From IMG/VR virus record IMGVR_UViG_3300020021_000008, positions 1 through 63,215 of that record: 63,215 nucleotides of DNA; one strand, 5' to 3'. This DNA comes from a virus. Lineage: Duplodnaviria > Caudoviricetes. Below the pieces are notes generated by a model. The model saw nothing but the letters and a program-made list of their open reading frames with translations, made no database searches and was not told where the DNA came from. Positions 5,418-39,533 of the stretch are shown one piece after another. The stretch's first letter is position 1, and each line of letters starts with the position of its first letter. A program made the position numbers and the translations under genes.

Positions 5418-6278
5418 TCAGTGAAAGCCCTGTTCGCGCTTTTCCTTCAAGCCCTTTTCTCTCCACGCAAGCCACTCCTTCATCGGCATCTTATCCGGAT
5501 CTTTCTCGACGGACGTTCCGCCGGAACCGATGGACTTGATGGGAGGGGGAGCGGAAGAGGTCTTAGGAGCAGCAGTGAGCTTGGCAGCGACCTTGGCGAG
5601 CGCCACGGCCTGGCGTGTGGGAGAGAGGACCATGATCCTTGAGGCCTCATCCATGTCCTGAGCCAGCGATTGCAGTATCACATGCGCATCGCCGGCCTCC
5701 ATGGTGGCCTCGATGAACGCCGGAGTGAGGCCCCCCAAATTCGCATAACTCTTGAGCGAGTCATCGAAATCCGGGTACTGTTCCTTGCCCTTGGAGTAGA
5801 TTTCGTTGCAGCTACGATCGAACTCCCTTTGCGCAGCGATTTGCGCAGCACGGCTCTCAACATCGCCGTCGCTCGCGCGCTGCGGCTGTTGCCGCTGCTG
5901 CTGCTGGTCCTCGGGCTTAGCCTCTGGATTTGCTCTGGTGCTGAGGGCCTCTCTTAGCTGCCGGTTTTCTTCGGCGATAGCCGCCGCCTGTCGGATAGTC
6001 TCAGACTTCTCTCGAGTAAGTGCATCGATGCGTCGCTGGAACCATGGGACCTGGCCTTTGGGCTTAGGCCCACCTTCGGCGGGCTTGGCCTCGACGGGAG
6101 GCTTTTCTCCATCAGCTTGTTTGCCAGTGGCATCAGCGTCGCCCTCGGTGTTGGCATCAGACTCGCCGCCTTCCTCTTCCGTGAGTTGTGGAGTCGGCGT
6201 TTCGACCAGACCAATGTCCTCAGTACCCTCAGCGTCTCCGCCTGTGGCCTCGGCATTCGGTTCCGTCTCTCCAGCCAT
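5418..6278 (-). CDS. Scaffolding protein
   Basis: Acidic N-terminus, PWFQRRIDALTREK coiled coil and SAPPPIKSIG..MKEWLAWR C-terminus; ATG 6278 preferred as start. Confidence 0.75.
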   Translation of the reverse strand: MAGETEPNAEATGGDAEGTEDIGLVETPTPQLTEEEGGESDANTEGDADATGKQADGEKPPVEAKPAEGGPKPKGQVPWFQRRIDALTREKSETIRQAAAIAEENRQLREALSTRANPEAKPEDQQQQRQQPQRASDGDVESRAAQIAAQREFDRSCNEIYSKGKEQYPDFDDSLKSYANLGGLTPAFIEATMEAGDAHVILQSLAQDMDEASRIMVLSPTRQAVALAKVAAKLTAAPKTSSAPPPIKSIGSGGTSVEKDPDKMPMKEWLAWREKGLKEKREQGFH

Positions 6279-37552: not shown

Positions 37553-37628
37553 CTGCGGGGATGGTGATACGGCTCGGGTACTTCATCCAACGAAGCGTCC
37601 CCGATCCAGACTTTGTTCCTCTCTGCAG
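37553..37628 (+). ncRNA. Y-RNA-like unit 1
   Basis: Closing stem CTGCGGGGA/TCTCTGCAG; TGGTG..GGGTACTTC..TGTTCC motifs. Confidence 0.65.
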
Positions 37629-37636
37629 TTCCCATT

Positions 37637-37704
37637 GGGAGGTGGTGTTACGCAACGGGTACTTCTTTGGTGAAGCGTTCCCGTAGCACGGTTGTTCCCC
37701 TCCC
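37637..37704 (+). ncRNA. Y-RNA-like unit 2
   Basis: GGGAGG/CCTCCC stem; same motifs. Confidence 0.65.
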
Positions 37705-37718
37705 GCTTTCGCAACCCC

Positions 37719-37785
37719 TGGCGAGTGGTGTTCGGCACGGTTACTTCAGCGGTGATGGTACCGTACCAGCAGTGTTCCCTCGCCA
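37719..37785 (+). ncRNA. Y-RNA-like unit 3
   Basis: TGGCGAG/CTCGCCA stem; same motifs. Confidence 0.65.
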
Positions 37786-37793
37786 CCTCACCT

Positions 37794-37874
37794 GTTGGGT
37801 GGTGTTTGCCGCAGTTACTTCGATCCTCGCCATACTTGAGGCTTTACGTACTGTGGCTGCCGTATTCCCCCAAC
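37794..37874 (+). ncRNA. Y-RNA-like unit 4
   Basis: GTTGGG/CCCAAC stem; TGGTG..AGTTACTTC..TATTCC. Confidence 0.6.
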
Positions 37875-37887
37875 GCCTCTTCCCTGG

Positions 37888-38012
37888 GTGGATGGTGTAG
37901 TTATCGGTTACTTCAACTTTGGGTCGAGGGTTCAAATCCCTCCAGGTGGTGACACCTGTAGCTCAGTTGGTAGAGCAAAAGTCCTCGTGCCGTAACACTG
38001 CTGTTCCTCCAC
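37888..38012 (+). ncRNA. yrlA: YrlA-type Y RNA (tRNA mimic), unit 5
   Basis: T arm GAGGG-TTCAAAT-CCCTC precedes capped acceptor CAGGTG-GTGA-CACCTG and D arm TAGCTCAGTTGGTAGAGC; next to the Ro60 gene. Confidence 0.8.
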
Positions 38013-38014
38013 TG

Positions 38015-38040
38015 GAGGGCCGAAAGGCCCTCCCCTTTTT
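38015..38040 (+). terminator. Intrinsic terminator within the Y-RNA cluster
   Basis: GAGGGCC-GAAA-GGCCCTC followed by CCCTTTTT. Confidence 0.7.
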
Positions 38041-38060: not shown

Positions 38061-38202
38061 GTTGCGTGGCGTATGGGTCGGTTACTTCGGTTAGAGCGCC
38101 GACGTCCGCTTGTGTCGGAGGTTGTGGGTTCGAGTCCCACTGAGGGTGGCAGTGATGCTGCGCTTATAGCTCAATCCCAACTGTCCCTCCTGTTCCCGCA
38201 AC
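38061..38202 (+). ncRNA. Y-RNA-like unit 6 with a tRNA-like domain permuted at the D loop
   Basis: GTTGCG/CGCAAC stem; GGTTAGAGC, CCGAC/GTCGG arm, T arm GTGGG-TTCGAGT-CCCAC, hairpin, then TAGCTCAAT. Confidence 0.7.
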
Positions 38203-38222
38203 TCGGAGCCCCGGAGCCCATC

Positions 38223-39533
38223 ATGGAACTCAACCGCACAGTCGGTCCCGTCACTTTCGAGGGAGCCCCCGCAGCGCCCACCACTCCCGAGCAGGCTCTC
38301 CGCCGCTCGGTAATGTCGTGCCTGTTGTGGGAGCGTGAGTTCTACGAGGATGGAACAGCAATTGCGGACCGCATAGAGATACTCTGTGCCAAGGTTCCCC
38401 ACAGCGTCATCGCGGCACTCGCCATCGAGGCCAGGCATAAAATGCACCTGCGGCACGTGCCGCTCCTGCTGTTGGCAACGCTTGCCAAGCTGGCCCCGGG
38501 GTCATCTCTGGTGTCCGACACCATCGAAACCACCGTGGCGAGAGCGGACGAGCTTACCGAACTCCTTGCCATCTACTGGCGCCGTGGCAAGTGCCCGCTG
38601 AGTGCCCAACTCAAGAAGGGCCTCGCCAAGGCATTCCGCAAGTTCAACTCCTACCAGCTGGCCAAGTACAACCGCCCGAAGCCAATTCGCTTGCGGGATG
38701 TGATGTTCCTCGTCCACGCCAAGCCGGACGCCGAGAGCGAGTCCACCTATCGGGACCTCGCAAACAAGACTCTTGCCTCGCCCGACACCTGGGAGGTCGC
38801 TCTGAGTGCCGGTGCGGACAAGTGCGAAACGTTCACTCGGCTCATCAAGGCCGGAGAGCTGGGGTATTTGGCGCTCCTCCGTAACCTCCGCAACATGGCC
38901 GAGGCGGGAGTGGACACAGAGCTAGTCCGCAACGCCATTGTCGCAGGGAAGGGGGCGCATCAGGTCCTCCCTTTCCGCTACGTTGCGGCGCTGAGAGCCG
39001 CCCCTCAGTTCGCGAACGAACTCGACTACGCCTTACAGCAGTCCATCGCGAAGCTGCCCCTGCTACTCGGAACCACTCTGGTGGTGGTGGATGTGTCGGG
39101 CTCGATGAACGATACGCTGTCCCAGCGTTCGGACCTCACTCGCATGGACGCCGCTGCGGCCCTCGCCGCACTCATCAACGGGAGTCGCCTCAGGGTATTT
39201 ACCTTCTCCGACAAGGTGGTCGAGTGTGCTCCGTGGCGCGGCCTCGCTGGGATCTCCGAGATCCTTGGCTCCCAGCACCACTCGGGCACGTACCTCGGCC
39301 AGGCCCTTGCCACCATCCTCGCCGCAACAGAGAACCAGTGGGACCGCCTGATTGTCATCACTGACGAGCAGTCCCATGATCGTGTGAGGCACCCTGGCCG
39401 GGGCCGCTGTTACATGATCAACGTCGCCAGTGCGAAGCACGGCGTCGGCTACGGCGAGTGGCTTCACATCGACGGCTTCAGCGAAAATGTGATCCGCTAC
39501 ATCGCCGAGTTCGAAGCAGCTTTGGCCCGGTAA
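38223..39533 (+). CDS. rsr: Ro60/Rsr TROVE-domain RNA-binding protein with vWA domain
   Basis: TFEGAPA, SCLLWEREFYEDG, RHVPL, RADEL, YQLAKY, TWEVALS, ALLRNLRN, PFRY, VDVSGSM, IVITDEQ; start 38223 (GGAG RBS). Confidence 0.92.
   Translation: MELNRTVGPVTFEGAPAAPTTPEQALRRSVMSCLLWEREFYEDGTAIADRIEILCAKVPHSVIAALAIEARHKMHLRHVPLLLLATLAKLAPGSSLVSDTIETTVARADELTELLAIYWRRGKCPLSAQLKKGLAKAFRKFNSYQLAKYNRPKPIRLRDVMFLVHAKPDAESESTYRDLANKTLASPDTWEVALSAGADKCETFTRLIKAGELGYLALLRNLRNMAEAGVDTELVRNAIVAGKGAHQVLPFRYVAALRAAPQFANELDYALQQSIAKLPLLLGTTLVVVDVSGSMNDTLSQRSDLTRMDAAAALAALINGSRLRVFTFSDKVVECAPWRGLAGISEILGSQHHSGTYLGQALATILAATENQWDRLIVITDEQSHDRVRHPGRGRCYMINVASAKHGVGYGEWLHIDGFSENVIRYIAEFEAALAR

What the first reader, a model, noticed from the sequence alone, without database searches (positions are those of the whole stretch)
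38061..38202. A tRNA-mimic Y RNA permuted at the D loop rather than at the anticodon arm
Seen: unit 5 has the YrlA order (T arm, capped acceptor, D arm, attached through the anticodon position). Unit 6 instead reads D-loop 3' half GGTTAGAGC (38089-97), anticodon-like arm CCGAC/GTCGG with an enlarged loop, AGGTT, T arm (38124-40), a capped acceptor-like hairpin, then TAGCTCAAT, whose GCTC (38169-72) can pair with GAGC (38094-97). Inference: this is a second circular permutation that keeps an exposed anticodon-like arm, possibly a new Y RNA class and a bait for anticodon nucleases.
Basis: partly seen in the sequence, partly recalled or inferred. Interest (0 to 1): 0.75.

Follow-up and report, generated by a model that had tools for sequence, protein, structure and literature searches.

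The report
Phage Y RNA wired through D loop
This is a small non-coding RNA next to a phage Ro60 gene whose tRNA-shaped end is connected to the Ro60-binding stem through the D loop instead of the anticodon stem, a rare rewiring of a known kind of tRNA mimic.

Summary
Unit 6 (38061-38202) is the last of six Y-RNA-like units upstream of a phage rsr/Ro60 gene. Its order is: Ro-binding stem 5' strand, D-loop 3' half with D-stem 3' strand, hairpin at the anticodon position, 5-nt variable loop, T arm, capped acceptor hairpin, U8-A9 with D-stem 5' strand, Ro-binding stem 3' strand.

- A model built from seven relatives, without the window, finds it end to end at 52.5 bits.
- Rfam YrlA gives 19.8 bits against a gathering score of 69, and only through a forced 30-nt insertion.
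- ARAGORN calls a tRNA only after the module is un-permuted in silico.
- Eight members exist, in phage contigs and Acidobacteria-type genomes. They are 5 of 319 T-arm units next to rsr.
- Hairpin stems covary. The D stem is invariant, so it has conservation and folding support only.

The "anticodon-nuclease bait" idea is not supported: 0 of 7 relatives have a 7-nt loop there. The wiring was not found in the papers I could search. D. radiodurans Yrn1 partly anticipates the D, then anticodon arm, then T order.

Verdict: a new variant of the tRNA-like Y RNA kind; function inferred only.

The parts
37555..38010 (+). Five further Y-RNA-like units. Units 1-4 are simple hairpin types. Unit 5 is the YrlA order: T arm, capped acceptor, full D arm.
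   Evidence: Repeated GGTG..GGTTACTTC..GTTCC frame read. Rfam YrlA scores 42.1 bits on 37918-37980.
38014..38040 (+). Intrinsic-terminator-like hairpin and T run between unit 5 and unit 6.
   Evidence: The same element precedes rsr in the closest relative, L005, which has no unit 6.
38061..38083 (+). 5' strand of the Ro60-binding stem: closing GTTGCG, the GGCGTA motif, and GGGTCGGTT.
   Evidence: Pairs with 38179-38202 in the unconstrained fold, in the flank duplex and in the RNAalifold consensus of 8 members.
38084..38088 (+). Conserved ACTTC linker, the end of the GGTTACTTC motif shared by all six units.
38089..38098 (+). D-loop 3' half (GG TT A), D-stem 3' strand GAGC (38094-97), and G at position 26.
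38099..38118 (+). Hairpin at the anticodon position: 5 bp with a 10-nt loop.
   Evidence: The stem covaries among members. It is weak in the window's own ensemble, with pair probability 0.05.
38119..38123 (+). Five-nt variable loop AGGTT. Its last T can form an A15-U48 Levitt-type pair with A 38174.
   Evidence: Read. Relatives have AGGTC together with G15.
38124..38140 (+). T arm: 5 bp with loop TTCGAGT.
38141..38166 (+). Capped acceptor-like hairpin: 7 bp with one G-G mismatch, then 4 bp, then a GTGA loop.
   Evidence: (stem of 11 with at most one mismatch) and the ARAGORN cloverleaf.
38167..38175 (+). TA (positions 8 and 9), D-stem 5' strand GCTC (38169-72), and AAT (positions 14-16).
38176..38202 (+). 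3' strand of the Ro60-binding stem, including CTGTTCC and the closing CGCAAC.
38223..39533 (+). rsr / Ro60 gene (TROVE and vWA domains).
   Evidence: Pfam and PHROG 850. The start matches that of homologues.

Best explanation
Unit 6 is a phage-encoded Y RNA. Its 5' and 3' ends pair into the stem that the neighbouring Ro60 (Rsr) protein is expected to bind.

Its far end is a complete tRNA-shaped body. It has a 4-bp D stem, a hairpin at the anticodon position, a 5-nt variable loop, a T arm and an acceptor stem closed by a loop. This body is joined to the Ro60-binding stem through the D loop, between positions 16/17 and 18. In YrlA the join is through the anticodon stem.

It most likely works as the tRNA-like Y RNAs are thought to work. 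It would tether or gate Ro60 while presenting the conserved D-stem/T-arm core to a tRNA-recognising factor. The different wiring would change how that core sits relative to the Ro60 ring.

Shown here: the sequence architecture, its recurrence, and covariation of three of the four helices of the tRNA-like module.
Inferred: the tertiary fold, Ro60 binding, expression and function.

It probably arose, like YrlA, from a tandem tRNA pair or a duplicated module, but with break points in the D loops.
For: - The architecture is at the stated coordinates.
- A leave-one-out model scores 52.5 bits, E about 4e-10, end to end.
- There are eight members in all: the window, L075, L011, L336, L342, L351, L369 and L370. 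They score 48.5-81 bits with model R1. Every other hit scored 44.7 bits or less in the window plus 193 loci (a few loci repeat the same contigs). The best non-member hits in two of the three whole genomes searched scored 34 bits.
- In the model-fitted alignment 100% of cells pair, and 8 of 15 pairs show changes on both sides.
- RNAalifold on a plain MAFFT alignment independently returns the closing stem, the D stem, the anticodon-position hairpin and the T arm. 13 of its 24 pairs are compensatory.
- The unconstrained fold of the exact unit contains the D stem at probability 0.89. The unconstrained folds of L011, L336 and L351 give the whole architecture.
- ARAGORN calls a tRNA only after un-permutation: in 4 of 8 members, 0 of 500 shuffles, and 15 of 87 rotations.
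- tRNA core residues are in place: U8, A14, A21, G26, the T-loop, and a 15-48 pair in 5 of 8 members. That pair is A-U in the window and G-C in four others (read).
- The D-stem sequence is the one that dominates ordinary YrlA-order units: 145 of 173 are GCTC/GAGC.
- TAGAGC is present in 8 of 8 units that also carry TAGCT downstream. It is present in only 1 of the 8 reduced units I noted that lack that strand.
- The unit lies on the rsr strand, 20 nt upstream of the start codon.
Against: - The D stem, which defines this wiring, shows no covariation. Three pairs never vary and one changes G-C to G-U.
- G18 and G19 are present in only 5 of 8 members. The 15-48 pair fails in 3 of 8.
- In the window and four relatives the GG can instead pair with the bases after the D-stem 5' strand, which would extend the helix.
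- The window's own anticodon-position hairpin is not the preferred local fold.
- No RNA data exist for expression or ends. No listed holder is an RNA run.
- The closest relative, with Rsr 82% identical, lacks the unit, so it is dispensable for that phage type.
- The five bacterial members share one T stem (GCAGG/CCTGC), so the eight members are perhaps four independent lineages.
Confidence: 0.7

Rival explanations
1. Same RNA and same helices, but no tRNA-like three-dimensional fold. The 'D stem' is simply the top of the Ro60-binding stem, extended by GGUU/AAUC-type pairs with a bulged A. It ends in a junction carrying three hairpins, like the three stem-loops described for Yrn1. The tRNA resemblance would be a leftover of its origin.
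For: - The minimum-energy folds extend the D stem by 3-4 pairs in the window, L011 and L336. By hand the same is possible in L370 and, weakly, in L075.
- GG is missing in 3 of 8 members.
- A14 is missing in L370.
Against: - The extension is not available in L342, L351 or L369.
- U8, A9, A14, A21 and the 5-nt variable loop are conserved although they pair with nothing in this model.
- The 15-48 pair switches from G-C to A-U in the window.
Confidence: 0.2
2. Unit 6 is not a free Y RNA. It is part of the rsr mRNA leader, where binding of Ro60 would regulate rsr translation or stability.
For: - It lies after a terminator-like hairpin and ends 20 nt before the ATG, beside a GGAG.
- The L011 member also directly precedes rsr.
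- No sigma-70-like promoter was found between the terminator and the unit.
Against: - In L075, L336 and L351 the member is followed by another unit, or lies more than 280 nt from rsr.
- The promoter scan covers one promoter type only, and the host is unknown.
Confidence: 0.06
3. A decoy for anticodon nucleases, through its free anticodon-like arm.
For: The arm at the anticodon position is free of the Ro60-binding stem in this wiring.
Against: - 0 of 7 relatives keep a 7-nt loop there. Four have GNRA tetraloops.
- The window's loop is 10 nt and lacks the U33/R37 pattern.
- True anticodon-loop signatures occur instead in YrlA-order units of related loci.
Confidence: 0.03
4. An ordinary YrlA in which GCTC 38169-72 pairs with the downstream GAGC at 38206-09.
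For: Rfam's YrlA model can be forced onto 38116-38215.
Against: - It scores only 19.8 bits (gathering score 69, E 0.23) and needs a 30-nt insertion.
- That pairing would consume the 3' strand of the Ro60-binding stem.
- No downstream GAGC exists in L075 or L011.
Confidence: 0.01

Closest known systems
YrlA (Rfam RF02553), the tRNA-like Y RNA of Salmonella, mycobacteria and many phages
   Same: - Encoded beside rsr on the same strand.
- Ro60-binding stem formed by the two ends.
- The same conserved T arm and the same GCUC/GAGC D stem.
- Acceptor stem closed by a loop, and a Levitt-type 15-48 pair.
- Already described as resembling a circularly permuted tRNA (Wang 2018, 10.1101/312249, passages).
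   Different: - In YrlA the order is T arm, acceptor, full D arm, and the module joins the Ro60-binding stem through the anticodon-equivalent stem.
- Here the D arm is split. Its 3' strand comes first, its 5' strand comes last, and the Ro60-binding stem leaves from the D loop.
- The Rfam model scores 19.8 bits on it, and 0.1 or worse in E-value on all seven relatives.
Yrn1 of Deinococcus radiodurans
   Same: Chen 2014 (section 6; discussion passage) describe D-loop features, then an 'anticodon arm', then the T arm. This is the same 5'-to-3' order as the first half of unit 6, and the authors contrast that orientation with YrlA.
   Different: - Yrn1 is said to lack a full D arm and a variable arm, and no closed acceptor hairpin is described.
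- Unit 6 has a 4-bp D stem, a 5-nt variable loop and a capped acceptor stem.
- I had no Yrn1 sequence, so no direct comparison was run.
Circularly permuted tRNA genes of some algae and an archaeon
   Same: The 3' part of the tRNA is encoded before the 5' part and the acceptor is initially closed (Wang 2018 passage). I recall, from no call, that break points other than the anticodon loop occur there.
   Different: Those transcripts are processed into working tRNAs. Here there is no 7-nt anticodon loop and no sign of such processing, and the RNA carries a Ro60-binding stem.
Tandem tRNA genes
   Same: The stretch from the D loop of one tRNA to the D loop of the next has the same order. Two such pairs were the best false hits of model R1, at 43.5 and 45.5 bits. 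This fits the dimeric-tRNA origin proposed for YrlA.
   Different: Unit 6 has a short capped acceptor instead of two free ends with a spacer. It is enclosed by a Y RNA stem.

Membership tests
Y RNA (bacterial/phage, Ro60-associated) | Encoded next to a Ro60/Rsr gene on the same strand. | tested here: met
   The unit ends 20 nt upstream of the TROVE and vWA ORF 38223-39533.
Y RNA (bacterial/phage, Ro60-associated) | The 5' and 3' ends pair into a stem carrying the conserved 5' motif (GNCGAA-like; Chen 2014). | tested here: met
   The stem is found. The motif here is GGCGTA, and relatives have GGCGAAG or GGTGAAG. The window therefore carries a variant of the published motif.
Y RNA (bacterial/phage, Ro60-associated) | Bound by Ro60 and expressed as a small RNA. 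| not testable with these tools
   No listed run holding the stretch is RNA.
YrlA (RF02553) | Reaches the Rfam gathering score of 69 bits. | tested here: not met
   19.8 bits, E 0.23. No hit at E 0.1 or better on the seven relatives' units.
YrlA (RF02553) | Order is T arm, closed acceptor stem, complete D stem-loop, with the join to the Ro60-binding stem through the anticodon-equivalent stem. | tested here: not met
   The D-stem 3' strand lies 5' of the T arm and the D-stem 5' strand lies 3' of the acceptor.
YrlA (RF02553) | Conserved T-arm and D-stem sequences and tRNA-type tertiary partners. | tested here: met
   The T arm and GCTC/GAGC are the same as in 145 of 173 YrlA-order units. A 15-48 pair is possible in 5 of 8 members. 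GG is present in 5 of 8.
tRNA (RF00005) | Cloverleaf in natural order with free acceptor ends and a 7-nt anticodon loop. | tested here: not met
   ARAGORN finds none in the native sequence. The Rfam tRNA hit of 25.3 bits is a chimera of units 5 and 6. The loop is 10 nt and the acceptor is capped.
Yrn1-type Y RNA | D-loop features, then an anticodon-like arm, then the T arm; no full D arm, no variable arm. | tested here: inconclusive
   The order of the first three elements agrees. The full D stem, the variable loop and the capped acceptor do not. No Yrn1 sequence was available for comparison.

The most novel reading that the evidence does not exclude
D-loop-wired Y RNAs are a separate, independently permuted class of tRNA mimic. 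They coexist with a YrlA-order unit in the same array: in the window, and in 6 of the 7 other loci. They would place the Ro60 ring at the elbow side of the tRNA body, so that a different set of tRNA-recognising host factors is recruited or blocked. Where the acceptor stem has 7 bp, as in the window, RNase P could open it into a two-piece RNA with a tRNA-like 3' end.
Probability: 0.15. Interest if true: 0.75.

Novelty: new variant of a known kind. Interest (0 to 1): 0.5.

Why it matters
tRNA-like Y RNAs have an unknown partner. That partner is thought to read the conserved D-stem/T-arm elbow (Wang 2018, passages).

A natural isomer that keeps this core but moves the attachment point from the anticodon stem to the D loop acts as a ready-made permutation experiment. 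Whatever still binds both forms reads the core. Whatever binds only one form depends on geometry relative to Ro60.

It also shows that current models (Rfam YrlA, tRNA finders) miss part of the Y RNA repertoire. It is consistent with an origin of these RNAs from tandem tRNAs with more than one break point.

Tried and rejected
- **Exact-motif scan of viral contigs.** It returned 94 stretches. All but the L011 contig lacked the Y RNA frame and a T loop, so they were chance matches.
- **Gapped pattern.** It returned 78 stretches. 16 passed a loose 5'-motif filter, and only L075 and L077 were full members. L180 is a reduced form.
- **Structure-based scan that left the D-stem sequence free.** It found only GAGC/GCTC members, so no D-stem covariation could be obtained.
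- **Expression.** No RNA holder was listed. Laying contigs of four DNA runs added nothing on unit 6 beyond a 151-nt contig of another soil run covering 38170-38315.
- **Rfam at gathering thresholds and ARAGORN on the window.** Nothing was found.
- **Neighbouring ORFs.** Pfam and PHROG searches gave no tRNA- or RNA-repair enzyme.
- **Literature not seen.** The 2018 and 2020 Wolin-lab reviews are not held. The supplements of Chen 2014 (figures S1 and S4, tables) could not be seen and may already show such a wiring.
- **YrlA-order pairing with the GAGC at 38206-09.** Considered and rejected.
- **Literature search for this wiring.** No paper describes it. For Chen 2014 I read passages and section 6. 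For Wang 2018, Hu 2025 (PMC12135203), PMC12282133, PMC7824862 and the 2026 tRNA-mimic preprint I read passages only.

Full report
**Setting**

The window is a complete 63,215-base virus record. Between 37555 and 38202 on the + strand there are six units with a common frame: GGTG/GGCG motif, GGTTACTTC, a variable middle, GTTCC, and a closing stem. They lie directly upstream of an ORF at 38223-39533. That ORF carries TROVE and vWA domains and matches PHROG 850 'RNA-binding protein', so it is a phage Ro60/Rsr.

The surrounding genes are phage-like: a UvrD-type helicase, a PD-(D/E)XK nuclease, DUF669, a ParB-methylase and a UDG-family protein. Related Ro60 genes occur in Xanthomonas, Xylella, Caulobacter and Brevundimonas phages. 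Each of the three I opened has an array of such units upstream. Y RNAs beside phage Ro60 genes are known (Chen 2014 abstract and methods; Hu 2025 passages).

**The observation**

The unit reads as follows:
- closing stem and Ro-motif strand, 38061-38083;
- ACTTC;
- GGTTA-GAGC-G, 38089-38098;
- a 5-bp hairpin with a 10-nt loop, 38099-38118;
- AGGTT;
- T arm, 38124-38140;
- a hairpin of 7 bp (one G-G mismatch) plus 4 bp capped by GTGA, 38141-38166;
- TA-GCTC-AAT, 38167-38175;
- the 3' strand of the stem, 38176-38202.

In tRNA numbering this gives U8, A9, a D stem at 10-13/22-25, A14, A15, G18, G19, A21, G26, a class-I variable loop, the T-loop consensus and a G53-C61 pair. The Ro60-binding stem is inserted between positions 16/17 and 18.

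**Is it more than chance?**

- Rfam at gathering thresholds and ARAGORN find nothing in the window.
- At relaxed thresholds, Rfam YrlA scores 42.1 bits on the tRNA-like part of unit 5. On unit 6 it scores only 19.8 bits (gathering score 69). It reaches a D-stem 3' strand only by a 30-nt insertion to a GAGC at 38206-09, beyond the closing stem.
- The Rfam tRNA model gives a 25.3-bit chimera. It takes the D 5' half from unit 5 and everything else from unit 6. This shows that unit 6 holds the 3' three-quarters of a tRNA.
- Folding exactly 38061-38202 without constraints gives the closing stem, the D stem (pair probability 0.89), the T arm (0.79-0.91) and the acceptor-like hairpin. The CCGAC/GTCGG hairpin has probability 0.05 and costs 1.8 kcal/mol relative to an alternative.
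- A wider 176-nt stretch folded no better than its shuffles, with a z-score of -0.12.
- When the module is un-permuted inside a script (acceptor cap opened, D halves joined), ARAGORN at default settings calls a tRNA with an irregular anticodon loop. It calls none in 0 of 500 shuffles.

**Relatives**

I collected 193 loci. They comprise 3 named phage records, 29 plus 80 viral loci found with the Ro60 protein, 80 genome loci, and L075. Some viral loci are the same contigs fetched twice.

Model R1 was built from five units with this architecture. It scored 71.7-81 bits on its own training units and 62.1 bits on one new unit, L351. Everything else scored 44.7 bits or less. Of the 19 next-best hits that I read, 1 was L351, 16 were YrlA-order units and 2 were ordinary tRNA arrangements.

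In the three whole genomes holding L336, L342 and L351, the unit beside rsr was the top hit. The only other matches at E 0.001 or better, in two of those genomes, scored 34 and 33.7 bits. Among 151 genomes of L351's order, 5 had a hit at E 1e-6 or better. Three of those are members (L351 itself, L369, L370) and two are tandem tRNA genes.

There are thus eight members in all: three on phage contigs (the window, L075, L011) and five in bacterial assemblies, mostly labelled Acidobacteria. The five bacterial ones share a T stem and are probably one lineage.

A model built from the seven others alone finds the window's unit end to end at 52.5 bits, E about 4e-10, with no non-standard pair. Unit 5 is next at 28.3 bits.

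In a rule-based census of 319 distinct perfect T arms upstream of rsr in the 193 census sequences (the window and 192 loci), the counts were:
- 177 with a full D arm after the acceptor (YrlA order);
- 26 with a D arm before (natural order);
- 111 with no recognisable D arm;
- 5 with the split D arm.

Rfam YrlA gave sub-threshold hits (26-45 bits) to other units in 6 of the 7 relatives' loci, and none to the split-D units. As in the window, the variant therefore sits beside an ordinary YrlA-order unit.

**Structure support**

On the model-fitted alignment of eight members, all 120 cells pair and 8 of 15 pairs change on both sides. Sliding the partners drops pairing to 36-47%.

RNAalifold on an unfitted MAFFT alignment of the whole units returns the closing stem, the D stem, the anticodon-position hairpin and the T arm. 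13 of its 24 pairs are compensatory.

The D stem itself never covaries. It is GAGC/GCTC in seven members and GAGC/GCTT in one. A scan that left its sequence free found no other type. This matches ordinary YrlA-order units, where 145 of 173 D stems are GCTC/GAGC and 6 are GCTT/GAGC. It also matches the published remark that D and T stems are extremely conserved (Wang 2018 passages). The D stem therefore rests on conservation, complementarity and folding energy, not on covariation.

One indirect point: all 8 units that carry TAGCT after the acceptor hairpin carry TAGAGC before the first hairpin. Of the 8 reduced units I noted that lack that strand, only 1 has TAGAGC there.

**Fold or only a junction?**

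For the tRNA fold:
- U8, A9, A14, A21, G26 and a 5-nt variable loop are kept.
- The 15-48 pair is possible in 5 of 8 members. It is A-U in the window and G-C in four others.

Against the tRNA fold:
- GG is missing in 3 of 8 members.
- The 15-48 pair fails in 3 of 8.
- In the window, L011, L336, L370 and, weakly, L075, the GG can pair with the bases after the D-stem 5' strand. That would extend the helix.

I cannot decide this by computation. I give the junction-only reading 0.2.

**The anticodon idea**

At the anticodon position the seven relatives have:
- GAAA or GAGA tetraloops (L075, L011, L342, L351);
- a 6-nt loop (L336);
- a 3-nt loop (L369);
- a 4-nt loop (L370).

None has 7 nt. The arm is thus a capped strut, not an anticodon mimic.

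By contrast, many YrlA-order units in related loci have a 5-bp hairpin before the variable loop (79 of 173), and 57 of those 79 have a 7-nt loop. Among all 113 such 5-bp/7-nt hairpins, T occupies the second loop position in 104 and a purine the sixth in 108. At least 60 of the 113 are built on the Y RNA's own TTCG or TTCT motif. If any units imitate anticodon arms, it is those.

**Known relatives of the idea**

- Wang 2018 already call YrlA a look-alike of circularly permuted tRNA and propose an origin from a dimeric tRNA.
- Chen 2014 note that Yrn1 of D. radiodurans has the other orientation: D-loop features, then an anticodon-like arm, then the T arm, without a full D arm or variable arm.
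- Unit 6 combines that order with a full D stem, a variable loop and a capped acceptor.
- I found no description of this wiring. However, the supplements of Chen 2014 and two reviews could not be read.

**Local history**

The closest relative (L005, Ro60 82% identical) has three units, the same terminator-like hairpin, and then rsr. It has no unit 6. In the window, unit 6 sits between that hairpin (38014-38040) and the rsr start. It is therefore a recent gain or loss. Its transcription either reads through the hairpin or starts at a promoter that the simple scan does not see.

**Verdict**

The unit is a rare wiring variant of the tRNA-like Y RNA kind. Its function is inferred by analogy only.

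Noticed in passing
window 38073-39533: An ATG at 38073 opens a 486-aa ORF in frame with rsr that runs across unit 6. Homologues start at the position of 38223. Automatic gene calls may therefore swallow the RNA.
   Followed up: partly
window 38014-38040; L005 2430-2470: A terminator-like hairpin follows unit 5 and precedes unit 6. The closest relative has the same hairpin but no unit 6.
   Followed up: yes
L001 2607-2720; L002 2085-2200; L007, L009, L028, L332 and many others: Many YrlA-order units carry, before the variable loop, a 5-bp hairpin with a 7-nt loop built on the conserved ACTTC motif. The loop shows an anticodon-loop pattern: T at position 2 in 104 of 113, and a purine at position 6 in 108 of 113. 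This may be the 'V' stem-loop of Chen 2014, and it looks like an anticodon arm.
   Followed up: partly
L003 2760-2834; L002 1741-1808; L351 704-771: The annotated tRNA-Ser of phage Kikimora and tRNA-Gln of CcrColossus coincide with the 5' halves of Y-RNA-like units. Rfam's tRNA model scores 34.4 bits, above its threshold of 29, on such a half in L351.
   Followed up: partly
L002 1330-2530: CcrColossus has about eight units in a row. They include ones with a long variable arm and Leu/Ser-type D arms, so the array imitates several tRNA types.
   Followed up: no
L003 2649-2740; L012 2077-2150; L002 1955-2040; L017 2389-2480: These are reduced units in natural order. ACTTC pairs with GAAG-like bases around a GG-containing loop (a mini D arm), followed by a hairpin and a T arm. 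There is no acceptor hairpin. This resembles the description of Yrn1.
   Followed up: partly
L169 about 5830-5940: A tRNA-like sequence in natural order has a 22-nt insert in its D loop. The insert contains GGTGGTGAACTTC, which is reminiscent of the Y RNA motifs.
   Followed up: no
L351 772-900: One unit has an insertion of about 100 nt with a second copy of the T-arm 3' part, between the T arm and the acceptor hairpin.
   Followed up: no
window 37785-37876: A contig of another soil run joins 37785 to 37876. It represents a relative lacking unit 4.
   Followed up: no
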